DNA of 64,000 nucleotides from NCBI GenBank assembly GCA_039621445.1, contig CP154954.1, forward strand, positions 4,141,437-4,205,436, given 5' to 3'. A model generated the notes under the pieces. The model was not told the DNA's origin. It was given only the letters and a program-made list of their open reading frames with translations, and did no database searches. The position numbers and the translations under genes are program-made. The stretch is from Euglena gracilis. Its lineage: Eukaryota. Positions 1,721 to 55,822 of the stretch are shown piece after piece. Every line of letters starts with the position of its first letter. The stretch's first letter is position 1.

Positions 1721-1751
<31 letters not shown>

Positions 1752-7311: not shown

Positions 7312-7378
7312 CATTTTGCAAAAAGTTATGTCTTCAAACACCGAGACCTCAGGTTCAGGGCAGTCCGCATTACCTCAC

Positions 7379-19699: not shown

Positions 19700-19738
<39 letters not shown>

Positions 19739-19894
19739 TCTGGAATTTGATTTCTTCGACAGCATCCAAGACAGATCCAAGCGAATTCTCTTCTTTGGGG
19801 GCTGTCAATCCTGCTATGACCGATTTCTTGTTATTTTTCAAGCTTTTTTTATTTGTGGATGGCACAAAATCGCTGGCACGCACGGCAGGTTTGG

Positions 19895-20008
<114 letters not shown>

Positions 20009-29147: not shown

Positions 29148-29519
29148 AACCCCCCCAAATAATACCCCCCCCCAAATAATAACCCCCAAATACAACTTGG
29201 GGTCGACTTCGGCCGCCGAAATAAACCCCCCCCCTGGTTTCGGGCCGCAGGCCCGGATTTTTGACCTGAAATGTAGGAAAATCACAACTGACACAAATTA
29301 TGGAAAAAATGGATGGCTCATCTGACGTCCAAAAATGGAAATTTCACAAGAAAGTGCAAAAAATGACCCCCAAAGGGCGGTGCTACTTTGGGTTTTTCGG
29401 GACTTCGGAAATTTTTCGAAATTTTTTGGGAAAATAAACCCCCCCCCCCCAATATCGGGCCGGGACTTCGGGGGAAAAAATAATACCCCAGGGGGGGTAT
29501 TATTTGGGGGGGGGGGGTT
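29148..29519. mobile_element. 372-bp TA-flanked MITE (AAATAATACCCC motif)
   Basis: TA|AACCCCCCCAAATAATACCCCCC ... GGGGGGTATTATTTGGGGGGGGGGGGTT|TA. A related truncated piece lies at ~28075-28350. Confidence 0.88.
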
Positions 29520-29521
29520 TA

Positions 29522-29744
29522 CCCGCCCCCCCCCCCCTAGTCGTACGACCGGGTTCCTGCAACCTGTGACCAGGGGGGGGGTCGTAACACCCCCGTAACC
29601 TGCAACCTGTAACCGGGGGGTGGTCGTAAATAAGGGGGCGGCCGTAGGTAAAGTGGTGTTAATTTTTTCGTAATCTGCAACCTGTGACCGGGGTGTGGTT
29701 GTAAATGAGGGGTGGTCGTACGACAAGAGGGGGGGGGGGGCGGG
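29522..29744. mobile_element. 223-bp TA-flanked MITE (GGTCGTA motif)
   Basis: TA|CCCGCCCCCCCC..GTCGTACGACC ... GGTCGTACGAC..GGGGGGGGCGGG|TA. Its left TA is the right TA of the preceding MITE. Confidence 0.9.
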
Positions 29745-30006
29745 TAGAAACCACCCCAAAAAACGGGGGAGGTACTCAACGGTTTTTTCGTCGCAAAAGG
29801 GAGGTGGATCAGAAAGTTGCAAAAGTGCTCGATCACACATACCGGGATCAAACAAACTGGGGAAAACAAAAACAGGAGAGAGTTGGTACCTTTGAAACTA
29901 AGGGCCCTGTATGGCATGAAAGATCCAAAAAATGAAGGGAAATTAGGTCACAGACGGATTGGACTTCTTATCAGAAAAGAAGAATTATGAAGTCATAAAA
30001 TTTAAA

Positions 30007-30420
30007 GGTTGTTTTGGCTTGGAGGCTTGGAGTTCCAATGGTAGTAAAATGCACCTTAGCAATCTGCAAAAGCCCTGCCGACTTGGATGGCCAAATGGCG
30101 GTGATGGGATTGTAAGAGCTTCAGCAGCCCCAGGCAACTGTGCACATGTGGTCCCTTGCACGGCTCCTAATAGCTGGTTTCAAATTTGGTGCCCTAGCCA
30201 TGGCCACATAATTGGCCGGAGGTTGAGGAGGGTATGTCAAAACAAAACAACCATGATTTAAAAACACACAATGATGTTTGTGACATTCGCATCCCTTTTT
30301 TGGCCATCAGAGCTCTGGGAATTTTTGTCACACTTATATGCCATACTTTTTACACACAATACTTGAATATTCGATAATTCAATTGCTTTGAATTTTTGAT
30401 GTCTTCAGCCACATCGTACA
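30007..30420 (+). repeat. Backbone module P, copy 1 (copy 2 at ~39755-40185)
   Basis: Shared GTTTTGGCTTGGA, TGGCGGTGATGGGATTG.AAGAGCTTCAGCAGCCCCAGG and TTGGCCATCAGAGCTCTGG. Confidence 0.9.
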
Positions 30421-30527
30421 CCTGTACCCCATCCCAGGGAAATTCTAAAGCTGGACCCACCCCCCGGGATCCAGCGAGCCACCACCGTTTTTTAGACTTC
30501 TAATGCATAGCATACCCATGCTCTCCA

Positions 30528-32223
30528 TTGGAATGTCTGCACGTGCAGAAGCATTTGTCGGTGGTTTCGTCTGGCGTATCCGATTTCCATAACTTCGAGG
30601 GGATTGTGGCAGATGTGTCCGAGGAGTCTTCGTTGTTGTTGGGCCTCCGCCCATTCTCGTTGGTGGGGCTGCACCCTTTGTGCGTTTGGGACGTTACGAC
30701 CTGGACGTACAATTCATGATTGACCATCTGTTCTGGATTTCAGACGGATGTGACACAATCATGCAGAAATACTACGAAGAGCAACACCCCTGTGTGGTTG
30801 CTCCAGAAATACACCGACATATGGTCAAACTGTACAAGGAAAAAGCGCGAGGCTTTTTTTTCGACGGTACAATTTCCTGCTACGAAAGCCAGGATGGCAT
30901 TCACAAATTGCCGGGATTCTGGCAATTACTTTTCTGGCTCAGATTCCATTGCATGAACTTCGGCTCATTTGCAATCCCAGCCAGCAAAGGACACTACCTA
31001 CCACATCCAAATATATGTCTACAATACGGATGGGAATCAACCCTTGACGCACTGAAGACAATGTTCGACGATATCCGAGAAATCGGACCACAAAGCATGC
31101 TATGGGAAGTATTCCCACTTCCAAAGGATGTACAATTGGTGACACACAAAATGTTTTGATACAATTACCAAATTTTTTTGAACGAACACTACGGCCCCCA
31201 TTTCCAAGTGGTCGGAATCGACCTGACATATCCACAAAAATTTGTCGTTTGGGCGTCTGCGGAGTCTGGAACGCGGAGAGTACAGCGCACAAAATGCTGT
31301 AAGGGCCGAAGTGCCAGCTACAACGCCTGCTCAGGCACGACCACAAACACCATTACCAGACGCGGAACCTGACGCTCCTACAGAACTTACAATGGCCGAA
31401 GTGCCTGCAAACCCTACAAAGGCCGCAGCGCCTCTGACAGACACGGTTCCACCCACCTCCGCACGTGGGGAAAGTGGACGAGAAGCAACCGATGAAGATA
31501 TAATCGCACTACGCGACGAGACTGAACAAATACAACGTGAATTTCCATTCGGCATTTACAGCGGACCCAGACGACTTCATACTCATACCACCAGAAGTCG
31601 GGCAGGCAGCAGGACGCATCCTAGGAGGCGTCCGAAATGACTTACTTCGATAATCACAATGGTGAGATCGAGGTCTTCCTCCTCAACGTGAAGTCCCCGT
31701 GACACGGGACTTGGCGAACAACCCACACAAGAAGTTCCGGCTTCGACTGCAGAACTGGCAGCAGACGCGGCCAGCTCTACTCCTGTTGTACAACCCACTG
31801 TCCAAACACCCGAAGTGGTGACAACGACCGAATTGACTACGGTCGAAACAACGCCACCACACGACACAACACCCGTAGTGGTACACACACACACCTGAAC
31901 AGGTGGTACCGACGGCACCTGACGTACCACCTACCACTACACCAACAGCCAAACCTGCTCCAAAGTCCCCTGCAGAGCGCCCCTTTCCGCAACAGCGGAA
32001 AGAAAAAGGCAGTAAACCTAAGCCTAAACCGCAGCCTGCACACCCATGCAAACCTGCTGAACGACACAACGAGCCAAAACCACCTGCACCTGGGAGTGGT
32101 AACAAATCAGGAAAGCGGGCGAAGACCTCAGCTGCTACCACACCAGCGCCAACTTACACTGATGTGACCGGGAAAAACCGGGTCACATCTACCCTTCGAG
32201 GTAGAACTCGATACAACGTCTGA
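30528..32223 (+). pseudogene. Disrupted ORF of unknown family: globular N-terminal part plus Pro/Thr/Ala-rich and basic C-terminal part
   Basis: Chain of + ORFs (30528, 30680, 31178, 31242, 31903). 30680 and 31178 share a frame separated by one TGA at 31157-31159. Non-repetitive, protein-like translation. Confidence 0.6.
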
Positions 32224-32404
32224 CACATCGCAAGAGGAAAACATGCCCGTTGACGATAATGCCGCACTTTGGCAAAACAAATAAAAAAATATTGGCCCGG
32301 CCAATAGCCAAATAGGGGGGGGGTGAGGGTAGCGGTGTGGCTGAATTTTTCATTCAATTAAGCAGCTACATTGCCTTCGAAAGCTTTCTTCTCTTCAACA
32401 GCCA

Positions 32405-33506
32405 ATTCATCCCCAAGCCCAGTTTTAGTCACTTTGCCGTTTTGCCACGGTGAGCCATTTTTTTCCAACTTTCAAGGAATTTATCCATTTCAATTTGAAA
32501 ACAATTTCACCATTTTCCTTCACTATCCTTCGCAACTTGATCCGTCTGGGCAATCACACGCAATTCCAACCTTGGAGCTCTTGCGTTCCCACTCCATTAA
32601 CACTCTTTTACCACCAACAATGGCTTCCGGCACTGCCTTCATGGTTCACAAATCACATGCAAATTGCACCATCTCAATCAAATAACAACCAAAGCTCCAA
32701 ACAAAAGGGAGGTCTGCTGCCCAGCCGGGGAGGGGCAAATGTAGAAAGGCTGTGGAAAGGATGCTGGACCCCCCACGAATAGATTCGAATTGGTTCGGCT
32801 TAAAGACAACCCCTGCTTCAAGCACAAAACAAATATTCTCTCTGCATGACACTCAGATAAATTCAGTTTCGTTGGCCATACTTCCTTTTTTCTGGTTGCT
32901 GAAAGAAATTGGTTAGAATGGAAGTAGGCGAAGTCCCAAAACGCTGCCTTTTTTACATCATGATGCAATTTCCTCGTGACATCTTCTTGACACCGGACAA
33001 ATTGTCTGTGGAAATTGCATCGCCCTGTGGCTCTTCCTGATTACAATTGCCATTATTTTAACTTCATCAGTCTTCAGCAATACTCCATTCTGTTTCGAAT
33101 TCCAGCAGGCGCTCATTCCCTTCGCAAGATTCAAATTGCAGTACAAACAAGAGAGAAACCAGAGAATGAGGAGAGGGAGAGGGAACAGGGCAGAATGCTT
33201 TGCACTCACTTCCGATAACTTGGTCGACAAATTTCATTTTTCAAATGTCAAATTCAACTTTCATTCGGCGCTGGGGATGCTTCCGCAACGCGTGCATCAC
33301 ATGTTTCGCGGCATGCATCGCCTGTTCCGCGTGGAATGCATGGTGCTGCACCACGACGCCCCACCAGATCTGCAACCACCACAACAGGCAAAGCAATGGC
33401 TAAAAAGGTTCAAAATTGAGACATTGTCAAAATTGCAAATCAGCGGCCAAAAATGACCAACAACAGCATCAAAAATGGTTCAAATGGGAAACAACACCCA
33501 ATAAAA

Positions 33507-33574
<68 letters not shown>

Positions 33575-34520
33575 AAAGGGAAAAAAAAACAAAAAAAAAT
33601 GGCAACAAGTTGCCGAAGAGGAGGTTAAAAGCAGCCAAAGGTGGCCAAAGTGGGAAAAAAGTTTGAGCGATGTTGGAAATGAGTGAAACTTCCCACATGG
33701 TGCACACTGCGTCACGCGGTGCACGCGGTGCCACACGTGGTGCACGTGGTGTTGCGGCCCCCCCCCCCCCCCCCGGCTGGCCCTGGTCTCAACCCCACCT
33801 GAAAAATCCGCCATGGTTGGCCCCAGTCTGCCCTGGCTGGGCCGACTCGGCCAATGGTGCCTCCAAACAGCCAAACACTAACAATTACAACAACTAAACT
33901 TCAGGAATAAAACTTGCAGGGCAAAAAAAAGACAAGAAACTGGAAAAGGAATTGCTGATCGTTGGCCTGTTGCTGGAAATCACTCTCTGTTGGAAGCACT
34001 TGACGATGGCGTGTGGGAGACCTATGGAAAAATAAGGTCACCGAGCCCGAGTACTCCTTTTTCATATTTTCCCCCCAAATTGTGTACAACCCCATGCAAC
34101 CATAAAAAGCATACCCATCCAGGGAAGGTAGTTACCACCCCAACCTTCGGCTAAACGCAGCAATCAATCGCCTGCACGCCGCCTTAGCCGCTCTGGAGCC
34201 CGTCCACTCAACCCGCACATCGGCACCGCAGGGCAGCGACAGAGAGGAGAGCATTTTGTTGAGAGGAGGGATTCCCTGGGAAAAGGTGGGGGTGTTGGCA
34301 GATGGAACGTTGCAAATGCCGTCCAAGTCTGGGATTGTTCGTGTTCGTGTTGGCCACAACAGACCAAGGGGCAAACTAATTCAGGACAGCTATTAAGATT
34401 CCAATGGTCTTTAGGGTGCAAACGAGCCACCCAGATGAAAATACCAGTTGTTGTAAGCCAGCAACCCATGTGGGGGTTTAACCACAAAAAAGCAAGACTA
34501 ATGACGAAACAACTGAATTA
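32405..34520 (+). repeat. Backbone module N, copy 1 (copy 2 at ~44640-46430)
   Basis: Shared anchors include TTTTGCCACGGTGAGCCAT, CCCTGCTTCAAGCACAAAACAAAT and CCACTCAACCCGCACATCGGCACCGCAGGGCAGCGACAGAGAGGAGAGCATTTTGTTG. Confidence 0.93.
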
Positions 34521-34522
34521 GG

Positions 34523-35385
34523 GGAAAACACATTTTTTTTGAGTTCTGGTTGGAGAGATAATGTTCCAGCAATGCCAGACATTTTTTCTTCCAGAAGTTG
34601 GCTTGTTTTGGCGAGATTCTGATCTTTGATTCTTGATCGGTCAGAGAAAATTCCGCCAGTCCATTTTAAGGATTTTAAGGGATTTTAAAGTTTTTCTAGC
34701 CGCCTTAAAAATAACAATGCCTGGCCAGGAGGGTGGGACCTGGGGGTGGACAGGGCCAGCCTGACGGGAATGAATTAGACTGGAAACACCACAGCAAGGA
34801 CCGTGAAAAAACCACCCAATGTTAGCAACCCCTTTGTGAGTAACCTCTAAATTTCAGCAGCCCTTTGGACTATTTTGGCCAACACCTGAATGCAAGCAAA
34901 CCCCAAACAAAAGACATTCCGAGCCTGGTGCTGTGAAGAAAATATTCATGAAAATGGCATTGGAGAGCTTGAAAGAAACATTCACCCCAAATTCAAATCA
35001 CCTTCAGCCCCTTTTCAGAACATAAATATAGGTGACCAATTGCTTATTCGGGGGATTTAGCAATCGAAGCAGGTGTTTCCCAAGGGACAGACATACCTTG
35101 GCCCCCTTTTATTTCACACACTGTGTCATTGATTGCCCGTGTCAAGAACAAACCCAAAACCTTGCCGTGTTTTGAACAGGGGGGTTGTTTCCTGGTTTAG
35201 GGGGGGTATCTCTTCCCTGAACACCCTTCCCCGGGCGTTTCGCCCCCTCCTCGTTGCATGCAGGCTTGCCCCAAAAGTGGACCCTTGGCATTACTTGTTA
35301 TCTTGGACCTTTTAACAATTTGGGTTATTTTGCTCATGGCCCAACAAAATTCTTAGCATCCAAACTTAGCCCCTTGATATTCTTC
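34523..35385 (-). repeat. Inverted copy of backbone block ~47505-48380 (partly also 1776-2185)
   Basis: CAAGCAAACCCCAAACA, CCACCCAATGT and GTGGACAGGGCCAGC are reverse complements of motifs at 47990-48160 and 1778-1950. Confidence 0.9.
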
Positions 35386-38300
35386 CCCCAGCCTGCCCGT
35401 TGTCAATGCTCTGTCTGCTGTCTCCCCCTGCTGTTTCGGAAGGTGAGAGGGACGAAAATGTCAGCTCTTTTCCCTTCTGACCCAGACCTGCCCGGGAAAC
35501 TGTACTCTCCCCTCTGTCCCCGCTGTCCTGCCTTTATAGGGATTTCTCCTCCCTGTGTAGTCACTGACTTGTTGGGTGCTTCGGAAAGCAATTTTTGTGT
35601 TGTATCATATTTGCTTGGGTTTTCTTGTTTTATGTGTTCTGGCTTTTCAATTTTTTAAATTTTGTTCCTGGCATTGCGAAAATTTTTCATTAAATTTTCA
35701 GCTGTTTTTAAGTATTATTGCCTAAAATTTTTTTGACACCTGGGGGGGCCCGCAGCTCTTTGCAGCCCTGGACCCCCCCCCTCTCCCCATCAATGAGATT
35801 TATTTATTTCCCGCCGCCCGAAGGGCGGCTGGACGCTGACGGATTACGCGCTTTTAAGGGTCAACAGCCCTTGGACCAAAATAGCGTCTTAAAAAGGCTT
35901 AAAAAGCCTAAAAAGGTCTGAAAAAGGCCTTAAAATGCTTTAAAATTTCGGGGAAAAGGTGCATTAAAAATAATCATGCCTGCTCCTGGAAAAGAGCAGG
36001 AACAGAGAGCAAAAAGAGAGAGACTTGTGAACGGCTGTCTTGCATGGCTTTCCACACGGGGTCAGTCCAGGGGTGGAAAGGTCTCTTTGTCACCCGAGAG
36101 TGCGCGACTCGCAGGCTCGGCTGAGTGCGTGTGTGGATGGCCCGGCGCGCTGGCGGTGCGTCAGCGCTGGCGGTGCAGACCGGAGGGGGGAGCGTCCCAG
36201 CCAAGTGGCAGAGGCACAACGGTGGAAGGAAGAGACGGCCAGGGTGGGCCGGCAGCGGCGGTGGGGGACGGGACGAAACAAACGAGCCGCAGTTACACCA
36301 TCATTATTAGGTCAAAGTCAAACACAACAAAATTTTGCTGTCGCCTCGTACGTTTTCACGGATCCTCTTGGCCGTGGGGAGCTTGGAAACCCGAGGGGTG
36401 CTTGGAAACTCGCGGGGAAGACTGAGCAACTCGAGGGGGAATATAACCCCACTCCCTGGGTAGCCATCAAAAATATTTCGTCTGAGTTGGAAGTGCAAAA
36501 GAAAGCACTTCTGTCGATCAGAAGGACGGTCCCTAACTTAAAAAAAAAATATTTTGGCAATACACTTCAACCGAAAAATATGGCCTTTTTACATGCAGGC
36601 GTCACTCTCCGGAAAGTCCGCAATGGGAAGTGAGGATTCCCGCCTTTGATAAAATGACGAATCATGGAGGTCCCTGAAATCCCTGGTGTCCCTGCACATG
36701 TGGATACTCCTTTCTGATGGAGGAGGTCTCTGAAACTCCAAATGCCTCCACAATGGTGCGGGTACTTCCGTCATCTTCGTCTGGGTTTTCTCTTAGGCGG
36801 GTTGCCCCTACGGAGGAAAAACAATGCCCCAGAGTGATTACACCATGGTTGGGATCAGTCAGTGAAACGGTAAATGAACTAAATGGGGAGTTAATGAGTC
36901 CAGGGATTGTTGGTCAAAATCTGATCCCAAAAATGGCCGAAAATTCCAAATGTTCCGACTCTGACAATTTTTTCTCTCCAAAACGGCAGAAATTGAGGTT
37001 TTGAGAAGTTGAGGCCCCAAAAAATGTGTGGGCCGTGGCAGAGAAAAAGGAATTCAGTCCCCCCACTTTGACCTCCGGAGTTGTATTCTGGCCAAGGTCG
37101 AAAACTTGCAGAATTCTGGCAGATTCCTGGAATGTTGTTCTGAAAGAAAAAAAAAGGTGTCCAAAAAAACTAGGGCAGTGACTCATTCTATTTTGAAAAT
37201 ATTAAATTAGTCATTAAAACTCATTTTGTTTGAAATGTTCTAAAAAAGAAACACAATTTTCTCTTTCCCTTTCGAAAAAGATTGTTGTAAAAACGTTTGT
37301 ATTGATGTGGCATAAATACAATTAATAATATAATAATATTTTTTTCCGTTTCTACTTTCACGTTTCTAAAAAGGTCTCAGCTGAAAATTGGGCCCCAAAC
37401 AGGGTTCGCTATAAGGACAGGTGGGGGGGGGGTCCGGACCCCCCCTGCAGGCCATACACCACTAAAATCGGAAGGAAAAAAATCGGAGCAACACACAATG
37501 TTTGTCATTCTCCCAAACCAAATAACAGGAGTCGCGGAAAATTGCCTGTGAAGTGTCCCACGGGTAGCTCCCTCCAGCACATTTGATGGTTCAGCGAGGT
37601 CAAGCCAGCACACTGCTACCCCGCAAAGCGGTCAAGGTTGGGGGATGAAAGAAGGTCCGATATAACCTGGACTCAGTGGCACACTTCAGATTGCAAGAGG
37701 TGTGCCCCCCAAGGACACAATAACGTCCGCGGTATCGGCGTCTCTGGCCTATGGATGGTGAAACCCTGGGTGGAATTGCATCCCTGGACTGGGCGAGCCC
37801 TTTCCTGTTTTGAGATGTGTCACCGGGGGCTGGATTGTCACCCTCTGCCTCCGGTGAGGGGGTCCAAGGGACCCACTCACCCTACCCCCCCCCGGGGGAG
37901 GGGGTCCAAGACTAAAAAAACCCCTGCTTGGGACCCATCCGACATTGTGACAATTTAAAAAATGAAATCACTGTTGTGCAATGGATAATTCTAACACGTT
38001 AATCCAGACAAACAATTTGTTTTAAGAGTGGATGCGAGCCAGTATCAATTGATTGGGGAGGATAGGGCTCCTACTCCAGAAGACGCACGGGCCAAGCGTA
38101 CGGTGCCTGTCGCCTTCGTGAGTAGGAAGCCCACCATAATGCAACAACCCCCATTTTTTTTTGCAACAAGCCGGCCACCGAAGGCAGCCGGAAGGTTTTT
38201 TCGCATTGGGAAGAATTTTGTCTGTTGAATCTTGGACTCCCGGCCGCCATCAGCCTTGGAGATCCGGCAGTATTGGTCATCTTGGACCTCCCCCCTGTGG

Positions 38301-38428
38301 TGAGGCTCGCCGTTTGAAACTTCACTGGGGGGTCCTGGACACCTTCCCTCCCTCGCATAAACCAATGGTGAACTTCACCGGTGAAGCTTTTATCAAAATT
38401 TCCGACCAAACGGCATCAAAATACACAT

Positions 38429-39146
38429 ATGGCACAAAGTTGGGCCCCCTCACCCAGGGTGAGGGGGGGGGTGAGGGGGGTGAGGGGGGGGTGAGGGGGG
38501 GGTGGGGGGGGGTGAGGGGTGGGGTGAGGGGTGGGGTGAGGGGGGGGGGTGGGGGGGGGGGGGGGGGGGGGGGGGGGGGAGGGGTGAGTGTTGGGGGGTG
38601 AGAGTTGGGTGGGCGCGATTTGACCACAGAGCGTGATTTGGCCACAAAAAAAGACCGGTAGACAAGGATGAGGTTATTTTTTTTGCCGGGGGGGGTCCGG
38701 GGGGGGGGGAGCCCCCCCCCCGGGCAATCGAACAGTTTCATACGCCGCGCGATTTGACCACAGAGCGCGATTTGGTCCACAAAATGACCGGTAGACAAGG
38801 ATGAGGTTATTTTTTTTGCCGGGGGGGTCCGGGGGGGCGGGAGCCACCCCCCCCCCCCCCCCGGGCACTTGAACAATTGAATATGTTCCGCGATTTGCAC
38901 AGAAAATGATCGATCAGAAGAAATAACACCCATATTTCCGGGACTATGGTGGGTGAGGGGGGGGGGAGGGGGGGGGGGGGGGGGGGTGGGGGGCGGGGCG
39001 GGGGGGGGGGAGGGGTGAGGGGTGAGGGGTGGGTGAGGGGTGGGTGAGGGGTGGGTGACGGGTGGGTGAGGGGTGGGTGAGGGGTGGGTGAGGGTGAGGG
39101 GTCGGTGAGGGTGAGGGGTGGGTGAGGGGGCCCCACTTTGTGCCAT
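38429..39146. mobile_element. ~720-bp TIR element with GGGTGAG arrays and an internal ~133-bp duplication
   Basis: ATGGCACAAAGTTGGGCCCCCTCACC vs GGTGAGGGGGCCCCACTTTGTGCCAT. Duplicated GCGCGATTTGACCACAGAGCG... at ~38613 and ~38746. No clear TSD. Confidence 0.8.
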
Positions 39147-41081
39147 GACTCTCAAAATAGTCATTTTTAGAGGAAAAAGAACAAAATATGACAAAGCAAA
39201 AAAAAAAAACACCCAAACGCTCAAAATGGTGACATTCACCGCCCGGTACCCCCCCTTTCCACGGTGAATGTTCATCGCAGGGGGGGGGGTCCAGGATCCC
39301 CGTGCGCGCCAAAAACCCGTTGTTTCAACCTGGCATGCTGTTTCCACGTAAAGAAGAAAGCAGAGCCAGCGAAAAAATGTCTGCACCACAGAGTTCCCAC
39401 CCACTGCTTTGAAATAAATATTTGTTTTAGTTTTATATTTTGTGCTTATCCCACGAGCACGAGGAAGATCAAGTTTTGTTACTTTTTTGTCTTTTCACGT
39501 GGATGATCTCACAATGTTGTCGATTCTTCAACATTTTTGGTTGCCATGTATTTCTGTCCAGATTCTGTATAACACCCTCCCCAAAAACAATCACCTTGGT
39601 CATCACAGACTTGGGAAGGAAAACAGGTCCAGATAGCATTTCCTCCTGCCTGGAAAAACCATAGCGCGAAATTGGAATCCTTGAGATTTCGGTGAGTATT
39701 CTGAATATGATAATTATGAAATAGTTATAAAATTGGTATAAAACCCAACAAGGGTGTTTTGGCTTGGAAGCTTGGAGTTCAAATCTCATTAAATGCACCT
39801 ATATACATCGCACCAACTATCTGCAAAAGTTCTGCCGACCTGGACGGCCAACTGGCGGTGATGGGATTGCAAGAGCTTCAGCAGCCCCAGGCTACTGTGC
39901 ATGTGGTCTCTTACATGGCTCCTGATAGTTCTATTGTTCATTCTGAATCCAGCCAGCAAATAATTAAGGAGGGCTTGCCAACAAAAAACAATCATGCTTC
40001 AAAACCACACAATGATGCTTGTGACATTCTCGTTCATATTTTGGCCATCAGAGCTCTGGAAATTTGTCAGAGAATGAGAAAGTGCCATTCTCTCTCCTTT
40101 TTTAGGCACACATTATTTTGAATGTTCGATAATTGAATTACTTGATATTTAACGACTGTTGTGATTTCTTCAGCCGCGTCGTGCCCGGAATTTCTTAAGG
40201 TGGACCCCTACCCCCTGGGAGTACAGTTTTTCCAGCAAACACCTGCCAGTCGGATAGTGGACGCCCCCCAGGGGGGTGAGTGGGTATAACCTCGGCCGGC
40301 CAATGAAAACCAGCCTGTAACAAGAAAAAAAATTGATGAAAAGGATCCAAAATGGCCAAAAATGGTTGTTTCGGGGGTTTTCACCTCAATTTGAAGCGGT
40401 GTAAATTGCCCATGAAAATTTTGAGTGCATTCCAGAAACCGGTAAAATTGTTCTCAAAAACGGTCAAATTTTTTACCAACGGTCAAATTTAATTTAGGTA
40501 AATTGCACTGGACGAAGAAATTTTTTACACGTATACGACGATGGAGTCGATGAAGCGGAAAACCGCTTAAATGAATTTTAAAATATATTTTAATGTAAAA
40601 TCAGAAAGAAATACGTAACACTAAAAGATAGTAGTAAATATGTCTGTAAACATACATACGTCCCCAATAAACGCCTTAGAAACAGACAGATAGGTAATAA
40701 GTGGCTTTAACTAGTTTTGCTATGTATACTACTTACCAACAAATATAATGGCAAAAAAAAGCATAAACCACAACCTTCACGGATACTGCAACACATGATA
40801 TTGCTGAAAACAGAACAGGACCAACATTAAGAGAAACACATCATTGCAAATTGAAAAAGAGGAGAGACCATCCTTTGTCATCAACTCTCGCTGACACCGA
40901 CGTTGGCCACTGTGGTGTCGGGTATACCTGTTGGCTGCCGGAGCCGCATGCGGCGGAAGCAGGCACCCGGCAGCCCCGTGGCTCCCCGCCTTGCACTACC
41001 GTAGACAAAATGATCTTATAACAAATTTCCTGCAATTCAGTTGACAATTGACGACACAAATGACGGACTTGACATTCTCAG

Positions 41082-43454
41082 GGACGCGAGCTGTACAACA
41101 GGAGATGCTCCGGTCGCACCCGTACCAGCTGTTGCAGAAGCTGTGGAATATCCTGGTGTTCTCTAGCGTTGCTGCACCTGGGCCACGAGGTGTGACAGTG
41201 TACCTGGAGGGGGAGACCGGAGGACGAGGTGAAGGGCACCACCGCTCATCTGGTGCTGCAGAAGTGCCTCATGCTGCTGATGAACCTGGAACGACTGATG
41301 ACTGCCGGAAGGCCGCCCTCGGAATACCAGCGGACCATCTCCCTCGCCCTGCTGGTCTGGCAAGACTGGATGTGACGGCTGCTCGGCTGCCCGGCTGCGA
41401 GGTCATGCTGTCAAGGCTGTCCTCTGCCAGCGGAACCCGCACGTGACCAGCTTCGACGTTACGCTACAGCTGTTCCTGAACCTTGGTGCCTCCTCCAGAG
41501 CGGCTCATCACAGCCATGGTAGCCTTTGGCGGCAGTTGGTACAGGAGATGGCACGTTGTGTGCGTGGCTTGGTTGGAAGCCCCGGAGAACGTCCATTTCC
41601 AAAGAGGGACAGCACCACGTGCAGTGGCTGCTGGACCCGGAGAACTTCTCCACCTGGATGGCACCCGAACCTCTTCCAACACATATGACCACTGAGCAGC
41701 TGCTGTGGCATTATTTGCAGACCCTTGACCGAGGGCAGCGCCTCGCATCGGACGTGGAGGAGTGGCTCAAGAACAACGTTGGTTGTGTGGACCCAGATCT
41801 TCTGCAGGAAAGACAAAAGGCCATCTCCACCTTCTTGGCACACTGAAGAAGCACGGCTGAAGCAGGAGAAATTCCACCACTGCCTCCAGATGAAGCGGAA
41901 ATCTCTTGTATGACATGTGGGAAGCGGAGAAAACGAAACGAAACGGAAGCACGCTTCATCAACTTGGAAAATGGATATTTCATTCCAGAAAGAACTGACG
42001 TAACCCTGCAGCCGGCCAACTGGTTGTGGACCAGACCTGAGCAGGGGCAGGTCCGTCGGCCTTGCAAGGAGCACGTCAACGACGTCATCACCGAGCTGAA
42101 GAACAATCTCCCGCAGGAGCTGATGCTGACTGGGTGGCTGGAGAGAGGAGACCACCCTACCTCCCTGTGCCGTTGTCTGCTTTCCCGAGGTGATATTTCA
42201 CCTCACTCCAAATTATATGCAGAACTGATTCGGATTACTTTTATACTTCTTCATTCTTTTGCCATGTTTTTATATACTGCTTAAATAAAGGTGGGGGAAT
42301 GCAAATTTCTCTGTGGCATCTTTTTCACAGCTGCCGGGAAGTGGGTCATACTGAGTGGACAACACCATTTCCTGGCCGCGGCAGCCATCGCCGACGCCGC
42401 GATCACCGATACGCCCCTGTCCTTCACGGAGAGGTTCCGGTGCAAAATGGTGAAGGAAAACACCCACATCATGGAGTGCCAGCAGCTGGCCGGCAGGCTG
42501 CAGGGCATGGACGGAAACGTGATGGACATGACGCTGGCAGACTGGCAGACTCCCTGCAACCGGGAGGCCACTGAAATACATGGGGTGCCCTACAACTCAA
42601 TGAAGACGGAGCTGTTGAAGACCGTGTTCAGCAAGACAGGCTGTTGGGAGACGGTGGATAGCGTCCTGGTGTGCTTGGTTGTTGGCATCATAATAAAATA
42701 AATACCTGCAGAGGATGAGAAACATGTGTACATGGACAAAAATAATGTCCATTGTGTGAATGTGTTGATAGACATGAATATAATTTGAATTGTTTCCCCG
42801 CTTCAATTTTATTCTGATGTGGTTGTTTTCATCCTCTCAGGGGACCTGGGTGAAGGCCATGTTCCCGGTCACGCCCACGGAGGAGGAGCCCCCGCCCAAG
42901 CAGGACGGCCAGGGGGCAAAGGAGTACAAATCCAAGGAGACTAAAGAATCGCAGGAAAAGCCCAAGGAGAAGGAGTCCAAAGACAAGCCGCACAAAAAGC
43001 CCAAAGACATATTCAAGAAAGGCGCTCGGGGGTCCGCCTCCTTGTAGCCGGCCCGGCACTCCGAGTCGTCCCTGGAGCCGCTAGAGGGTGTGGCGCAGAA
43101 AGAGTGGTGCAATAATTTTTGACAAGGTTCATTGAGTCATTCATATATGCCTTCATCTTTATTTAATAATTATTCATATAATTATTTTGTACTATTGAAG
43201 AAGCGTGTTTCTGCTTTTTTACCAATATGCAAATTCCATCTATTTTAAAAAAGTCTTTCATTCAGGACTGAATGCTGTTTGGGCATTTTCCTTGCTTTTT
43301 TTTCCTTTACAGAATGAGGAGGACAAAAGCTTTTTCTGCAAAACTCTGGTTTCAGTCTGCTATTACTCTGTCGCCAGCTTGCACTGCCTCTCTGGTGTCG
43401 CGGAAGCGGTCCGCCCCGGAGAACATCCAGGAGATGATGGTTGACGAGGACTGA
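41082..43454 (+). pseudogene. Multi-exon pseudogene: unknown N-terminal domain, ParB/Srx-like domain, K/E-rich tail
   Basis: GC-rich exons are separated by AT-rich GT-AG introns at 42190-42330, 42669-42840 and probably ~43107-43312. The first two preserve frame (...LLSR-AAGKWVILSGQHHFLAA; ...VDSVL-GTWVKAMFP). In-frame TGA at 41844-41846, TAG at 43045-43047, and frameshifts in 41200-41620. Confidence 0.75.
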
Positions 43455-43571
43455 GTGGCCAATGCGGCTGCGGTGGCAGCAGGCGGCGGGTGCCGCCTGC
43501 GTGGGACAAGCGTCATCGCACTGTGACCCCAGACCCCGGATCAAAAACACCAGGCAACATCACACACAATA

Positions 43572-43807
43572 AACCCGACACCCTATTTATAACCCCCCCA
43601 TCCTATAATCCCCCCTACTTATAACCCCCCCCCTCAGGCCCAACCACTAAACCGTGACTTATAACCCCCCCGGAAGCCATGAGAAGGCAAAGAGAACCGC
43701 CAAGCTGAAACCCCCCCACTTATAACCCCCCCCCCTCGGGACAAACCACTAAACAGGATCCTGTAAATTATATAAGTTAAGGGGGTTATAAATGAGGGGG
43801 GGGGGGT
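43572..43807. mobile_element. TA-flanked MITE (TTATAACCCCC motif)
   Basis: Left ...ATTTATAACCCCC, right GGGGGTTATAAAT...poly-G TT|A. The motif is repeated about four times internally. Left terminus is degenerate. Confidence 0.75.
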
Positions 43808-46800
43808 TACCCGGACACCAAGCACACTCGTGTCGATTGTTTTGTTTCTGTGTCTCTTTGGCATGACTACGGACATCGAGGGTGCCTGGGGTGCATGGTC
43901 GGATATTCAGTGCCTAGACAAGAACATAAATACATACTTTGTTTTTGGGCTCTGCTTTAGGACGCGTAAAGACTGACTGTTGAATGTGGTTATGACACAG
44001 TTTTACTTCTCTGGGCTGTTTCAAATTTCAGTGATTGTAGTGTAATTTCCCATTCAGATGGTCAATGGTATTCTTCTTCTGATGCACACAGTTTGTCACT
44101 TTGTTCTGGTCAAAGACATTCTGTTGGGTTGAGGAAACAGAAAACCAGGTGTGAATCCACAATTTCCTCTTTTTTGAATTTTCCCTACCGATTTTGTTCA
44201 TTTTCATACAATTTGAAAAAAATGGGTCATTTCGAGTGTATTTTCGACTTTATAGGACTTTGTTACTGCAAGCCAAATATCCATTGAGATTGGACAAATT
44301 CGGGACCTCTTAAAGAAACTTCAAAAACTTTTTTTGGAAGCGGTTTTCGCATCCTCTGCCGTTTACAGAGAATCAGAAATTTTGGGCAATTTACGCCGCC
44401 TAAGTCAATAAACTGGCTCAAAAAAAAAACCCAAGCAGATGGCTTTGGGCTTTTTTGTCTCCATTCAGGTGCAGACCGGTCCCGACCGGCATCTGATTTG
44501 GACCCACCCCCCTGGACCCCCACCCTCCAGGGAGTCCAGCCAGCACTGTTTTTCCAGCTATTACAACAAACCCAACTGTCAAATTTTCATGAATAGAATT
44601 TCTGGAAAAAAATACTTGAAGGAAAGAAGATGCATCCAATTTATCCCCAGAGTTCAAATTTAGACCATTTTGCCACTTTGCCATTTTTGCCACGGTGAGC
44701 CATATTTTCCAACAACTTTCAAAGAATTTTGCAAATTGAAGTTGAAACCAAATTAACCCATCCTTCAAAACTTGCTCCATCCAAGCAATCTATCTTGGTG
44801 TTCTTGTGTTCCCACTCTATTACCAGTCTATTACCACCAAGAAATCGCTTCAACCAGCACTGTCTTGATGGTTTACAAATCACATGCAAATTATACCATC
44901 TCACCAAGGCTCCAGACAAAAAAAAGAGGTCTCCATCCCAGCCGGGGGAGCAGGTGGTGGCTGTAGAACGGGTGCTGGCTGGACCCTCCACAAATTGGTT
45001 CCCCTCCGGCTTAAGACTACCCCTGCTTCAAGCACAAAACAAATGCTTTTTCTACATGACCGTGAGACAAATTCAGTTTTGTTGGCCACATCTCCTTTTT
45101 TGGGGTTTCTGAATATCAGAATGGAAGAAAACAGAGACCCAAATAGCTGCATTTTTTTCCAATCATATTTTTATATTTGCATCCTCCTCAAAGCATCTTC
45201 TTGACACTTGACACATTTTCTGCTTCGCCCTGTGGAGGCTCTTCCTGATCAACAATGGCATTATTTTAACTTCATCGATATTCAGCGACACTTTACTCTG
45301 TTTCAAACACCAGCAGGCTTATTCCCTTCGCAAGGTTAACTTGCAGTGTCAACAAGAAATCAGAGAATGGGTGGGGAAGAGGGAACAGGGCAGAAAAGCC
45401 TCACACCCACTAACTACAAATAAGCTGAAATTCATCATATTTGGCGCTGGGGACACTTCCGCAACGCGTGCAACACGTGTTTCGCGCACCGCATGGTGCC
45501 GCAAATGCACCACGTGTGGCACTCCATGCCACCATACTGCAACCACCACAATAGGCCAAAAGAAATGGCTAAAAAAATGTTCAAATTTGAAAAATTGTGA
45601 AATTGCAAAACAGTGACCAAAAAAGTGACCAACAGTAGCATCATAAATGGTTTAAATGGGAAACAACACAAAAAAAAGCAAAAAAAACCCAAAATTTGGC
45701 AACAAACAGCCGAAGATGAAAAAGGAGTTTAAAAGCGGCCAAAGGTGGCCAAAATGAGTGAACCTTCCAACACTGTGCAGACGCTGTGACGTGGTGCACG
45801 CGGTGCCACACGAGGTGCGCGTGGTGTGGCAGCGTCCTCCCCCTGCCCTGGTCATAACCCCACCTACGGCGATCTGAAAGTCGGCCCTGGTTGGCTCCGA
45901 TTCTGCCGACTAGGCCAATGGTACCCCCAAACAGCTTCACCCCTACGACGACAACAATTAAACTTCAGGAACAAAATTTCAAGGGAAAAAAGACATGAAA
46001 CTGAAAAAAAAAATTGATTGTTGACCTGAGCATTTATTTCTGCAAATCACTCTCTGGTGGAAGCACTTGACAATGGCGTGCGGCAAACCCATGCAAAAAA
46101 AACGGCCGCCGAGTCTGCGTACTATTTTGCCATATATTACCAAATTGTATGCAATCCATGCAACCATAAAAAGCACACCCATCCGTGGAGGTTGCTACCA
46201 CCCCAACCTTTGGCTAAACACGGCAATCGCCTGCACGCCGCCCGAGCAGCTCTGGAGCCCTTCCACTCAACCCGCACATCGGCACCGCAGGGCAGCGACA
46301 GAGAGGAGAGCATTTTGTTGGGAGGATGGCTTGCCTGGGAAAACGTGGGGGCGGATGGAATGTTGCAAATGCTGTTGTAAGCCAGCAACCCAAAAAGCAA
46401 AGCTAATGGCAAAGCAACTGAATCAGGGCGATGATAAATGAACCCACGGGGGGGGGGTCCAGTTAAGAGGCAGGAAAATTTGGGCTGGCTGGAAAAAAGC
46501 TGCTGGCTGACGGTCCCAGGCTGGAGCTGAGCCTGGACAACTTTTTCCCGACCCATTTTCGCCGACTTCCGTACATCTAAAAGCCAAAATCTGTTAACGT
46601 TTCATTGATGAGGAGAAGGGGGTCCGGGGCTGGAAAAAAGCTTCAGGGAAAAGGCTGCTGGCTGGCTGGACCCTTCGGGGGGGTCAAAATTCAAGACCCT
46701 TCGGGGGGTTAAAAAAGCAACGTCCTGAACTGAATTATAATGAAAAACAACTACAAATGAATTGAAAATTGTCATATTACCAGAAACAGAATTCGAAAAA

Positions 46801-47985
46801 TGAAAAACCAGAATACACAAATCAAAAAACTGCTTTTGAAGCAACAACAATGCTCCCCTCAACTCCCCCGCGAGCAGCCCCCCCCCCCGTCCGAGCTATT
46901 TCCACAATGGGAAGGGAATAGCTCACTGTTTTAGCACTTTCATGAAGAAAATCTCAAAACAGTGTTCAAAATTGACCTTTTTTGGAAGGTTTCAAACATC
47001 ACTTTTTGGCAAATGTGCTTGGTATTGACCTTTTTTTTTTTTTGCGAAAATCCAAAAAAAGTTGCCAAAAATAACCCCTTTTTGGGCTTTCCCGCATCGG
47101 GGATGGGGAACATCAACACAACAAAAACATTTCTTTTTTCAAAATTGTTTCTTCAAAAAAAAAAAAAGGAATCAATAAACACCAAAAATGCTGCAACAAA
47201 AGAACACGTGATGCAGATTTGAAAAATGATGTTGTCGGTTTGCCCAATTGCATTCTTATGCAATTACTGCTGATGGAATTGGTCTAAAAAAATGTTTTAT
47301 GCAACTTCGTTTTCTCGCGTGCCCCAAAAAAAGTCGAAAATATGCATTTTTTTTAAATTATTACGATTTTTGATTCTGCAAAAAAATGGAAAACATCGCA
47401 GTGTAAAAATTTGCACTCCCTCTTGTCAAAATTGCAGTGTTAACATAACCTCCCCCCCCCCACCCGGCGCTTTGCCTGGGCACAAATGAAGGAGGGCCAG
47501 GGTCAATCTTAAGCGGCCAAATCTGTATTGTTAAGGATTTTGTTGGGCCTTGCGCAAAATAAGCCAGAATGTTAAAATACGGGTCCAAGGTGACAAGTTA
47601 TGGCCGTGGGTCCACTTTAGGGGGAGGCATGTAAGGAGGAGGGGGACAAAAAGCCTTGGGGGGTTCTTCAGGGGAAAGACACCTCACCTGAACCAACACG
47701 AAAACACCTCCCTGTTCAAAACACAGCAAGGTTTTGGGTGTTCCTGACAGGGGCAACCAATGACACGTTCTGTCTTAGAAAAGAATGCCTGTCCCTTGGA
47801 AAACACCTGCTGTGATTGCAAAATCTCCAAAAATATAAGCAGTTCTGTCACCTATATTTTGTTTCCGAAAAAAAGGCTTAGGGTGATTTAAATTTGGGGG
47901 TTGCCCAAGTTTAAAGAATGCTTCTTTCAGCCGTTCCAATGCAATTTTCATGAAAATGATCTTCATAGCATCAGGCCAGGGGTTG

Positions 47986-48925
47986 CTTCTGTTTGGGGTT
48001 TGCTTGGATTTGGGTGTCGGGCCAAAATATAGTTCGAAATGTTGCTGAAACTTGGGGGTTACTCACAAAATGGTTGATTACATTGGGTGGCTATTTTTTT
48101 TTCATGGGTCTTGCTGTGGTGTTTCATGTCTAATTGATCTCGTCTGGCTGGCCCTGTCCACCTCCAGCCTCCCCCCTCCCTATTTTTAAGGCGCTTATAA
48201 AAACCTAAAATGCCTTAAAAAGGTGCATGAAAATATGTTGCCAAAATGCCTCTAAATCCTTGAAAATGCGCAAAAATGGCAGGAGTATCTCGGACCAAAC
48301 AAATATCAAAGCGCAAAATCTCTCCAAAAACGAGCATCGCTGGAACATTGCTGTCCTAAACATCAAAAAAAAAGTGTTTTTTTGCCGTTTTGATTTTGGG
48401 GAACATTCAAAATTCAAAACGTTGGTTCGATAACCCTTGGACCACCCTGGAAAACAACGCCTTAAAAAGTCTTTACAAAATGCCTTAAAATATCTCAAAA
48501 TGTCGGGAAAAATGCACAAGAATAATAATACCTGCTCATGGCAAAGAGCAAAAGAAAGGGATGTGTGAACGGTTGTCTTGCATGGCTTTCCACACGGGGT
48601 CAGATTAGTCCAGAGGGTGGAAATATCTCATTACCACCGAAGATTGTGCGACTCGCGGTGGCTGAGCGCGTGTGGAAGGTCCGGCGCGCTGGAGGTGCAG
48701 TCAGCGCTGGCGGTGCAGACCGAAGGGGCAGGGTACCTGCCAAGTGGCATAGGCAAAACGGCGGGAGGAAGAGACTGCCAGGGTGGTCCGGCGGCGTCGG
48801 CGGAGAATGGTACACCAAAAGAGCCGCGGCATCACCATTTTTATTGGAAAAGATCAAACACAACAAAGTTTCGCTGGCTTAGGCCGCCTAACTCGCACTT
48901 GGCTTTGAAAATGACAGTAACTTTG
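47986..48925 (+). repeat. Diverged single copy of the right part of the 2.63-kb tandem unit (1776-2680)
   Basis: CTTCTGTTTGGGGTTTGCTTGGATTTGGGTGTCGGGCCAAAATATAGTTCG... is near-identical, then collinear. Further partial copies at ~35865-36340 and ~10550-11125. Confidence 0.93.
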
Positions 48926-49606
48926 TGCCGACACGCAAATTTACTTTGAAAAAAAGTTCTGTCTTCGAACACCGAGGCCTGAGTGTCAGGGCAGTCCGCA
49001 TTAATGTCTCCCTGCACCCCCAGGGCCTGGGTAAGAAAGCAACGACTTGGAACTCTACGGTCAATGGGCACAGCACACTGGGCTCCTGTGGCTGTTGCGC
49101 CGACGTTCAAATTCAAGCTCTCAGGGATCGCAACTCTGTGACACGTCGTTTTTCTAAACTTTTCACAACGTGTGCGTGGAGTTTACCCTCTGGATGACTC
49201 AGCAGGCAAGTCTTCATACACATGTCGCAGAGCCTAAAAAAGCAACCAAAAATGTTAAAATTCACCCAACCTGTGTAGCACCATCTGGGGAACACAGTCA
49301 AGGTTTCAAAAACGAGGGATTCACAACAGAAGTTTTGGCCCTTTTTTGGGGAAATTCATGTGTCCCAGCATGCGTTCAAACCCAGGGGGTTTGAACCTTT
49401 TGAAAAATGGTGCACAGGGTGGAAAACACCAACATGGGGCCCTGGTCACAACATCAGCTCACGGCACCGTGGATGATCTCCGTGGGACCAAAGAGTCAAA
49501 AGGGTGGGTTTCACCACCGGGGTTCAAAAAGATTGCAACACTGCAGACATTGCTCTAAAGCGAAATGAAACAATCAAAACCTTAAATGCGAGTTAGGCCG
49601 CCTAAG
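48878..49606. mobile_element. 729-bp non-autonomous DNA transposon, ~20-bp TIR, 3-bp TSD (TGG)
   Basis: TGG|CTTAGGCCGCCTAACTCGCA ... TGCGAGTTAGGCCGCCTAAG|TGG. Empty site TTTGCTGGCGCCCCGACAG at ~11125 (similar at ~36335). Confidence 0.9.
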
Positions 49607-49822
49607 TGGCGCGCCGTCAGTTTTCACTCCCCGTGGCCGTGGAGGGTACTTGGAAACCCGAGGGGGAGACTGGGCGATTCAAGGGGGAATCCGACCCCAC
49701 TCCCCGACTTCACATCAAAAATATTTCAGCTGAATTTGAAATGCAAAACAAGCACTTCTGTAAATTGGGGTGGAGATTTGGGGATGAGGAATTTACAAAA
49801 TGATCAACAAAACATTTCGCTG

Positions 49823-49983
49823 GGAGAAAAAAAAAGCTAGAAACGAGTTGTTTCAGTCAGGAAATTATACAGAAAATTGGTTCCAGACCGAACGTTTGGG
49901 CCACGGAGAAAAAAAAAGCTAGAAACGAGTTGCTTCAGTCAGGAAATAATACAGAAAATTGGTTCCAGACCGAACGTTTGGGC
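49823..49983 (+). repeat. 82-bp tandem duplication
   Basis: GGAGAAAAAAAAAGCTAGAAACGAGTTG...CCGAACGTTTGGGC at 49823 and 49905, with two visible substitutions. Confidence 0.95.
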
Positions 49984-50224
49984 TACCTAAAAGAAAGGTG
50001 CTGTTATCAAATCGTCAAGAAACTGAACATTTGTATTATTGGGAACATAAAGATTTGAAATTTTCGATTTCTGGTGAAAAAGGTCTCAGCTGAAAATCGG
50101 GTCACTTCATTTCTAAGTAACTCTTAAAGTCGACACACGTACGCACAACAAAACCTTGCAAAAAATAACAACCAACACAAAAAACGAATTCGAAGAACAG
50201 CGTCTTATAACCGCAAATGATATA

Positions 50225-50403
50225 CCTCCCCCCCCCAAGCCCAATGAACACTAAGGTGACAATCTAGCCGGTCCGAACGGGGGGTGTTCATTGGGCTTTG
50301 GGTATGGTTTCTGTGTAGATAAGGTATATGGTGACAATCTAGACGGCCCGGACACCCCCTGTTCATTGGGCAAGGGTGTTCATTAGGCATGGGGGGGGAG
50401 AGG
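50225..50403. mobile_element. 179-bp TA-flanked MITE (GTTCATT motif)
   Basis: TA|CCTCCCCCCCCCAAGCCCAATGAACAC ... GTGTTCATTAGGCATGGGGGGGGAGAGG|TA. Related right ends at ~9045-9098 and ~13505-13557. Confidence 0.88.
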
Positions 50404-54984: not shown

Positions 54985-55822
54985 ACCCAGTCAGTTTGGC
55001 ACCCACCCACCCACTGTCGGAAAGGGCTGTTGTGGCCAGTATGGCTTTGGGCTTTATATTCCAGTGGTTGGCCATTCCCATGTTTTCCCTCCAACGCATA
55101 TAGCCAACGTGCGGGCCATGTTTGCTACACTCTTTTCAAGTCACCCCTCCTGCTACAAGTTCACATTTGCTGCTTCTCTTTTCAAATCACTCGCGTAGTT
55201 CTTCACCATTTCTTATATCCTCCCATTCTCTTTCTGGTTTCTGTTTCTGATTCTTTCTTTTTATATTGTATTTTTTTTGCATTTGAATTATTTTAATGGC
55301 AGAAAAAAGAACAACCTCAGTGGGATGTGGGAAAAACTGCGACATTTTTTAAAAAAGAGCATTTGGAAGGTCCCTTACACATACTTCCATCAAAAATGAT
55401 TGCAGATGATTCTGGGCCTGTTCCATTGGAACTTGCTGTTCCAGATTAGTGGATGGTTGCAAACGTGTTATTTGGACAGACAGTCAGGCAGGCAGACAAA
55501 TAATGCGAGACAGAAAGAGTGAGAGGGAGGGGTGGGATAGGTGGGTCTGCCAGGGCTTTCGGGAATCCCCAAAACCCAATGGGGAATGGGCGGTGGGTGG
55601 GGTGGTCGATCCCCAGGGGGGGCTGCATGGGCAGGTGGGATGGTCGACCAGATGGGTGGTCGACACCCCACCCATCCAAGGCCACAGAGAAAATTCTGAC
55701 CTTAAAACCAGTATTATGGGAAGGCCTTGCAGGTATGTGGGGGGGCACAAGGCTCTTGGGGTCCCCTGCTGGAATGCGGGGTTTCGGCTGTTTTTGGCAC
55801 GAAACACCGACTTTTTTTTTAA
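54985..55822 (-). repeat. Inverted copy of ~18720-19615; related pieces at ~59960-60240 (+) and ~61075-61385 (-)
   Basis: GCGGGCCATGTTTGC, CCTGCTACAAGTTCA and TTTTTGGCACGA are reverse complements of motifs at 19450, 19410 and 18737. Confidence 0.88.

What the first reader, a model, noticed from the sequence alone, without database searches (positions are those of the whole stretch)
30007..46430. Same backbone slot, two different gene cargoes
Seen: module P (~30007-30420; ~39755-40185) is followed by module N (~32405; ~44640) twice. Between them copy 1 holds a ~1.7-kb unknown pseudogene and copy 2 holds the unrelated ParB-like spliced pseudogene. These are two of only three coding remnants in 64 kb. 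A CTGGACCC..CCCC..GGGA motif follows P in both copies (~30451, ~40201) and recurs at ~44513. Inference: a variable cargo position in a large mobile or amplified element, or an insertion hotspot.
Basis: partly seen in the sequence, partly recalled or inferred. Interest (0 to 1): 0.75.

Follow-up and report, generated by a model that had tools for sequence, protein, structure and literature searches.

The report
Two transposons in old duplicated DNA
Two old copies of a duplicated non-coding stretch each hold a different, much more abundant gene-like insert at about the same place, most likely two independent jumping-gene insertions, which is ordinary in a repeat-rich genome and not a gene-swapping cassette.

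Summary
The layout is real: P and N recur at 72-74% identity around two unrelated gene-like inserts. The cassette reading is not supported.
(1) P-N is only the start of a long colinear non-coding duplication. The window holds four partial copies, and 5 of 20 gaps between shared blocks hold at least 500 nt of unalignable DNA in both copies.
(2) In three DNA runs, cargo 1 is 246-299 times and the ParB-like exons 9-10 times deeper than their flanks, so both likely lie mostly outside P-N.
(3) Cargo 2 has its own ends: CAG...CTG inverted termini at 40269-44514 and a 9-nt duplication-like pair (7 of 9 identical). The third motif at 44513 is that right end plus the split target.
Cargo 1's ends and class are unresolved. 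The ParB label rests only on a motif and an Atlas lead. No whole genome was held, so the P-N census was not run. The scan noted ParB-like transposons elsewhere in this genome (31 notes). Ordinary; a weak landing-site preference is not excluded.

The parts
29835..30405 (+). Block P, copy C of the old non-coding duplicated unit
   Evidence: 73% to 39750-40143; extended by local alignment; own contig 30048-30415 at depth 185 in X1
30406..30491 (+). Segment with the TGGACCC..CCCC..GGGA motif (X), shared with copy D; its first 25 nt also resemble the reverse complement of 32315-32343
   Evidence: inverted match score 34.5, reached by 1.2% of random pairs
30492..32343 (+). Cargo 1: internally deleted copy of a very abundant element with a broken frame (about 30692-32275) and a Pro/Thr/Lys-rich part; class unresolved; left edge only placed to about 30380-30560
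   Evidence: bin depth 113,511-226,373 inside, against 371-764 in N1 (X1); ratio 246-299 in three runs; loose ends at 30690/30693 and 32275 show that other copies carry more sequence there
32399..34322 (+). Block N, copy C
   Evidence: 71.5-73.8% to 44633-46375; no coding signature
35903..37776 (+). Blocks Q, R, S of copy C, colinear with 48456-52283 in copy D
39587..40198 (+). Block P, copy D
   Evidence: bin 39798-40358 depth 686 in X1
40199..40237 (+). Motif X, first of two copies in D
40260..40268 (+). Left copy of a 9-nt target-duplication-like pair
   Evidence: 7 of 9 identical to 44515-44523; removing 9 nt gives the best motif score among 0-11 nt tested (47 against 41-43)
40269..44514 (+). 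Cargo 2: 4246-nt element with CAG...CTG inverted ends and no transposase found; likely a non-autonomous cut-and-paste transposon
   Evidence: 12 of 14 terminal bases complementary; gapped inverted match over about 375 nt, score reached by 0.5% of random pairs; inner 17-nt arms 40396-40412 / 44383-44399
41045..43460 (+). Broken, intron-containing gene of cargo 2; ParB/DUF3723-like part about 41961-42668 (a lead only)
   Evidence: frames and stops; GT..AG borders near 42190/42330, 42670/42841, 43103/43312; Atlas; no profile hit
43569..43807 (.). Small element with TTATAACCCCC repeats nested inside cargo 2
   Evidence: repeats; related contigs skip it, joints 43537/43568 to 43808
44515..44560 (+).
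44633..46375 (+). Block N, copy D
   Evidence: bin depth 985-1212 in X1

Best explanation
P and N are two neighbouring blocks of an old non-coding unit that is present as several diverged, colinear copies in this window, and the two cargoes are likely independent transposon copies that landed near the same short GC-rich motif after the duplication and then decayed. Shown: the colinear copies, the divergence, the depth contrast, cargo 2's inverted ends. Inferred: that the unit arose by local tandem duplication; that cargo 2 moved by cut-and-paste with a transposase supplied from elsewhere and split a GGACCCC motif while duplicating about 9 nt; that cargo 1 is a deleted derivative of a high-copy mobile family; that the insertions came after the duplication.
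For: Colinear same-strand chains: 7 blocks for 30005-37776 against 39750-52283, and 15 blocks for 10565-21765 against 48615-63998. Block identity is 72-89% in gap-free columns, and few indels are multiples of three (P 3 of 12; N 12 of 56). Younger tandem copies lie in the same window (2.6-kb unit at 97-98%; 1.2 kb at 95%). 5 of 20 gaps hold at least 500 nt of unalignable DNA in both copies. Depth: cargo 1 over N1 is 299, 294 and 246; ParB-like exon bins over flanks are 8.8, 9.1 and 9.9, in three runs of three studies. Cargo 2 has inverted ends and a 7-of-9 flanking pair. A smaller element is nested inside cargo 2. No transposase or recombinase profile matched any of 445 frames scanned.
Against: Summed contig depth is not a copy number, and only relatives of 85% identity or more were counted, so more diverged P-N copies are invisible. 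No empty P-N site was seen: none is among the 15 joints shown, and 356 were not shown. Cargo 1 has no target duplication, and its possible left inverted end lies in sequence that copy D shares, so its ends are unresolved. The 9-nt pair is C-rich and imperfect. Both inserts lie within roughly 100 nt of the same motif, which is closer than random landing predicts. The lowest cargo 2 bin is only 2.4-2.6 times its flanks. Pfam also missed both cargo genes, so the negative backbone scan is weak.
Confidence: 0.8

Rival explanations
1. Same as the best explanation, but the GGACCCC motif is a preferred landing site for several unrelated transposon families, so this interval is a true insertion hotspot.
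For: Cargo 2 splits one copy of the motif and cargo 1 abuts or includes the other. CTGGACCC is enriched, 18 against 5.9 expected.
Against: Only two cases. The motif is a common repeat in the window. Four other gaps differ in both copies as well. The two junctions are not the same base.
Confidence: 0.1
2. The P-N-Q-R-S unit is a dead giant mobile element with an exchangeable gene slot, like the cargo of fungal Starships or the accessory genes of red-algal Plavaka elements.
For: The unit is long (over 24 kb in copy D) and multi-copy. A further P-like copy exists elsewhere (joint 39800 to 30047, depth 174). Cargo 2's nearest named Atlas family, DUF3723 (0.91), is conserved Starship cargo (PMC9156397, passages).
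Against: No mobility gene was found (0 of 445 frames) and the backbone shows no coding signature. No unit ends were found. Copies lie side by side on one strand. Both cargoes far outnumber the backbone, and cargo 2 has its own ends.
Confidence: 0.06
3. One insert is ancestral to the duplication. Cargo 1 with ends at 30406 and 32343 was present first, and copy D lost most of it before cargo 2 landed in the remnant.
For: The imperfect inverted pair 30406 / 32343 has its left arm conserved in copy D near 40171.
Against: Cargo 1 has very many relatives at 85% identity or more, whereas the duplication copies are only 72-74% alike, which points to a younger insert. No trace of cargo 1 is found in copy D. 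There is no target duplication.
Confidence: 0.04

Closest known systems
Nested transposon insertions in old segmental or tandem duplications of repeat-rich eukaryote genomes (general knowledge, recalled; PMC12455990 passages describe the Euglena gracilis genome as over 50% repetitive, with local triplications near transposons)
   Same: Colinear diverged copies, copy-specific inserts of high-copy elements, elements inside elements, younger tandem copies nearby.
   Different: Nothing essential; two of the inserts keep gene remnants and lie beside the same short motif.
Mutator-like elements and Pack-MULEs (PMC3310237, passages: 9-11 bp target duplication, inverted repeats of 100-500 bp)
   Same: Cargo 2 has a weak inverted match over about 375 nt, a 9-nt flanking pair, a gene inside and no transposase.
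   Different: The match is decayed, no Mutator transposase was found, the gene looks like a transposon accessory gene and not a host fragment, and the CAG start also fits hAT-type ends (recalled).
PAG3 accessory gene of red-algal Plavaka, Mutator and Zisupton transposons (10.1101/2025.02.11.637652, passages)
   Same: A ParB-like gene carried by a cut-and-paste element; the paper reports such genes moving among transposon families.
   Different: Homology was not shown here. No oxygenase domain was found, and there is no array of inverted repeats (3 of 5 matches of one palindrome lie in cargo 2; 8 of 100 shuffles reach 5).
Starship giant elements of fungi (PMC9156397, passages)
   Same: Large element idea with variable cargo; DUF3723 is conserved Starship cargo and is the nearest named Atlas family of cargo 2.
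   Different: No DUF3435 captain, no bounded element, non-coding backbone, and the cargo is more abundant than its carrier.

Membership tests
Cassette or variable-cargo element | Cargo occurs mainly inside the carrier | tested here: not met
   cargo 1 is 246-299 times and ParB-like exons 9-10 times deeper than their flanks; the proxy counts relatives of 85% identity or more only
Cassette or variable-cargo element | Different cargoes share one junction and lack ends of their own | tested here: not met
   cargo 2 has its own ends at 40269 / 44514 inside a second motif copy; cargo 1 joins elsewhere
Cassette or variable-cargo element | Many loci with different cargoes in the same slot | not testable with these tools
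   no genome held; collection scans gave no relatives
Starship | DUF3435 tyrosine recombinase at the 5' end | tested here: not met
   no such Pfam hit in 445 frames; short or decayed frames could be missed
Starship | Element bounded by target duplications | not tested
   ends of the duplicated unit were not found in the window
Mutator-like element (cargo 2) | Long terminal inverted repeats, 100-500 bp | tested here: inconclusive
   12 of 14 terminal bases; weak gapped match over about 375 nt, 0.5% of random pairs
Mutator-like element (cargo 2) | 9-11 bp target duplication | tested here: inconclusive
   7 of 9 identical, C-rich
Mutator-like element (cargo 2) | Autonomous partner with a Mutator transposase | not testable with these tools
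   none in the window; no genome held
hAT-type element (cargo 2 or cargo 1) | 8-bp target duplication beside short CAG...CTG ends (recalled) | tested here: not met
   cargo 2: 4 of 8 mismatches; cargo 1: no duplication beside 30406 / 32343
ParB/Srx family (cargo 2 gene) | Profile or structure match to ParB_N | tested here: inconclusive
   no Pfam, NCBIfam or PDB hit; Atlas lead 0.90-0.91; single-sequence model unusable, pLDDT 40.7
Old tandem or segmental duplication (backbone) | Colinear same-strand blocks of similar divergence | tested here: met
   7 and 15 blocks in order; 72-89% identity in gap-free columns

The most novel reading that the evidence does not exclude
The P-N-Q-R-S unit is a dead giant non-coding mobile element whose GGACCCC motif is a dedicated landing pad that repeatedly takes up different gene-carrying transposons, among them a ParB/DUF3723-like one: a cassette-like uptake site in a eukaryote.
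Probability: 0.06. Interest if true: 0.65.

Novelty: already known. Interest (0 to 1): 0.14.

Why it matters
As read here it matters little: it is a worked example of how nested insertions in old duplicates imitate a cassette. Two side points have some use. Cargo 1 belongs to a very abundant family whose protein found no relative in any search made here. Cargo 2 adds a transposase-less member to the ParB-like transposons that the scan has noted in this genome. If the landing-pad reading held, it would be a site-directed gene uptake route in a eukaryote and worth much more.

Tried and rejected
Whole-genome P-N census: no genome held.

Collection scans: P, N and cargo patterns gave 0 matches or chance matches limited to 18-28 nt. 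Protein-based locus scans of viral contigs found no relative.

Protein searches: none at E 0.01 or better for cargo 2 or cargo 1. The representative search gave 2 repetitive chance hits. The Atlas gave no usable hit for cargo 1 or for cargo 2's upstream frame (0.75). Single-sequence folds were unusable (pLDDT 40.7 and 33.3), so no fold search was run.

Backbone as decayed exons: rejected. Indels are mostly not multiples of three, stops are common, and low pN/pS values come from picking the best of six frames. Backbone as a small-RNA cluster: Rfam gave only two sub-threshold matches, both on the nested element.

A private palindrome array in cargo 2: not significant. The pattern was built from the motif copies themselves and is circular.

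Expression: no RNA holder listed. In the one RNA run laid, 1484 of 1536 reads fit only partly, so nothing is concluded.

Sequence look-ups in the scan's notes gave nothing. Paper search for DUF3723 with ParB: 0 papers. Supplements were not read; those of the bioRxiv red-alga paper could bear on PAG3 homology.
Full report
1. Observation. Self-comparison finds P at 30005-30388 / 39750-40143 (73.4%) and N at 32424-34322 / 44668-46375 (71.5-73.8%). Local alignment extends P to about 29835-30486 / 39587-40243 and places the start of N at 32399 / 44633. The intervals are 2035 and 4524 nt long and share no more than a 32-nt local match. Profiles of P and N find no third copy in the window, and neither cargo has a second copy there. 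The layout is therefore real. Two details fail: there is a fourth coding scrap (RNase H-like, 37998-38138, E 0.013), and the ParB label reached no profile or structure hit.

2. P-N is the front of a longer duplicated unit. The match continues past N through blocks Q, R and S: 7 same-strand blocks in order for 30005-37776 against 39750-52283. A second stretch, 10565-21765, matches 48615-63998 in 15 ordered blocks, and 1775-9514 holds further pieces. Part of the N-Q interval is inverted between copies (709 nt). Identity in gap-free columns is 72-89% over 13 block pairs. Indels are mostly not multiples of three (P 3 of 12, N 12 of 56, Q 1 of 12), and stops are common. Of 604 stop-to-stop frames of 60 aa or more, 446 passed my filter (beyond base 6900, not low-complexity) and 445 were scanned. 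None matched a transposase, recombinase or any family at its curated cut-off; this is weak, since Pfam also missed both cargo genes. Rfam found nothing above threshold in 29500-46600. Younger tandem copies lie in the same window (2.6-kb unit at 97-98%, 1.2 kb at 95%), which makes local duplication the likely origin (inference). Of the 20 gaps between consecutive blocks, 5 hold at least 500 nt in both copies with no alignable stretch of 100 nt: P-N (2035/4524), R-S (980/2216), Ud-V (1706/1724), V-W (1428/562) and X-Y (1435/2858). The slot is thus one of several.

3. Abundance. No genome was held, so contigs of three DNA runs from three studies and one RNA run were laid on 29700-46500 at 85% likeness. 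In X1, contigs with 0-2 differences from the window have depth 35-185. Bins wholly in cargo 1 have 226,373 and 113,511; N1 has 371 and 764; the P2 bin has 686; cargo 2 has 2,469-61,318; N2 has 1,212 and 985. The ratios agree across runs: cargo 1 over N1 is 299, 294 and 246; ParB-like exon bins over flanks are 8.8, 9.1 and 9.9; the lowest cargo 2 bin is 2.4-2.6 times the flanks. The tool warns that summed depth is no copy number, and diverged backbones below 85% are not counted. Still, a contrast of this size means that most close relatives of each cargo likely lack close P-N flanks. One joint (39800 to 30047, depth 174) shows a further P-like copy elsewhere. No P-to-N joint is among the 15 shown; 356 were not shown, so an empty site is neither seen nor excluded.

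4. Cargo 2. It runs from 40269 to 44514 with CAG...CTG ends, 12 of 14 terminal bases complementary. A gapped inverted match covers about 375 nt with a score reached by 0.5% of random pairs, and includes 17-nt arms at 40396 / 44383. The flanks 40260-40268 and 44515-44523 agree at 7 of 9 bases. Removing 9 nt gives the best match to the other motif copies among 0-11 nt tested (47 against 41-43 for one, 42 against 39-40 for the other). Inside lies a broken gene with GT..AG gaps. Its nearest named Atlas clusters are DUF3723 (0.91) and one with 19% ParB_N (0.90), a lead only. Related contigs skip 43569-43807, a small nested element.

5. Cargo 1. The high-depth block starts between about 30380 and 30560 by bin arithmetic and still has depth 299,323 at 32314. 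Loose ends at 30690/30693 (19 and 21 contigs in X1) and at 32275 (18 contigs) show that other copies carry more sequence at both points; read by hand, the 30 letters after 32275 continue the frame without a stop. The window copy is thus likely an internally deleted derivative. An imperfect inverted pair lies at 30406 / 32343 (1.2% of random pairs), but no target duplication flanks it and its left arm is shared with copy D. Ends and class stay open. No protein relative was found. A Gag-like look of the Pro/Thr-rich part is recalled and untested.

6. Mechanism. Most likely (0.8): a non-coding stretch was duplicated locally long ago; its copies drifted to 72-74% identity; each then took up different mobile elements at many points. 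Cargo 2 landed in a GGACCCC motif by cut-and-paste with an enzyme from elsewhere, cargo 1 landed beside the matching motif of the other copy, and both decayed. Shown: colinearity, divergence, depth contrast, cargo 2's ends. Inferred: order of events and mode of movement. Against: proxy depth, no empty site seen, unresolved cargo 1 ends, and both inserts within roughly 100 nt of one motif. Rivals: a real landing-site preference (0.1), a dead giant element with an exchangeable slot (0.06), cargo 1 ancestral to the duplication (0.04).

7. Known systems. Cargo 2 works like a non-autonomous element with long inverted ends; the Mutator features of 100-500 bp ends and a 9-11 bp duplication (PMC3310237, passages) are met only inconclusively. 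ParB-like accessory genes on transposons are described as PAG3 in red algae (10.1101/2025.02.11.637652, passages); homology was not shown here. DUF3723 is conserved cargo of fungal Starships, which need a DUF3435 captain (PMC9156397, passages); none was found. A Euglena-type host comes from the scan's unchecked notes and was not tested; PMC12455990 (passages) describes that genome as highly repetitive. Other papers in searches were seen as listings only. I make no claim that this locus is absent from print.

8. Verdict. The pattern is real, and the cassette reading is not supported. It is ordinary nested insertion in old duplicated DNA. Interest 0.14; novelty already known. The boldest reading left open, a landing pad in a dead giant element, has probability 0.06.

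Noticed in passing
window 1-6900: Young tandem amplification of a 2.63-kb unit (97-98% identity) that holds an 18-nt-type repeat array and a piece of block Q.
   Followed up: no
window 7379-8550 and 12372-13531: 1.2-kb direct duplication at 94.8% identity, younger than the main unit.
   Followed up: no
window 34673-35381 and 47505-48220: About 709 nt of the unit are inverted in copy C relative to copy D.
   Followed up: partly
window 18976-19613, 54987-55604, 59872-60243: A further block occurs in both orientations in copy D, with exact 14-nt inverted arms at 54988 / 60238.
   Followed up: no
window 37998-38138: Retrotransposon RNase H-like scrap (Pfam RT_RNaseH_2, E 0.013, below cut-off) at very high depth, about 104,000 at 38086 in X1.
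   Followed up: partly
window 37410-37450: Short G-run/C-run inverted motif with the highest depth seen, about 1.8 million at 37422 in X1; likely the end of a very abundant miniature element.
   Followed up: no
window 46453-46500: Edge of another abundant element: many contigs have loose ends here and the bin depth is 60,349 in X1.
   Followed up: no
window 40920-41480: This bin of cargo 2 is about eight times deeper than the next one (61,318 against 7,472), so part of it is shared with a more abundant family.
   Followed up: no
window 32290-32306: Near-perfect 17-nt palindrome at the right end of cargo 1; a similar GGCCGGCCAAT core lies near the left end of cargo 2 at about 40295.
   Followed up: partly
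   Followed up: partly
window 1973-2350 and 4603-4980: 378-nt CAG...CTG element with 12 of 14 complementary ends and an 8-nt flanking pair with one mismatch, inside the young tandem unit.
   Followed up: no
window 20573-20763 and 29526-29715: 190-nt repeat at 90% identity just upstream of P in copy C.
   Followed up: no
window 38613-38854: 133-nt tandem pair between two long G-rich arrays.
   Followed up: no
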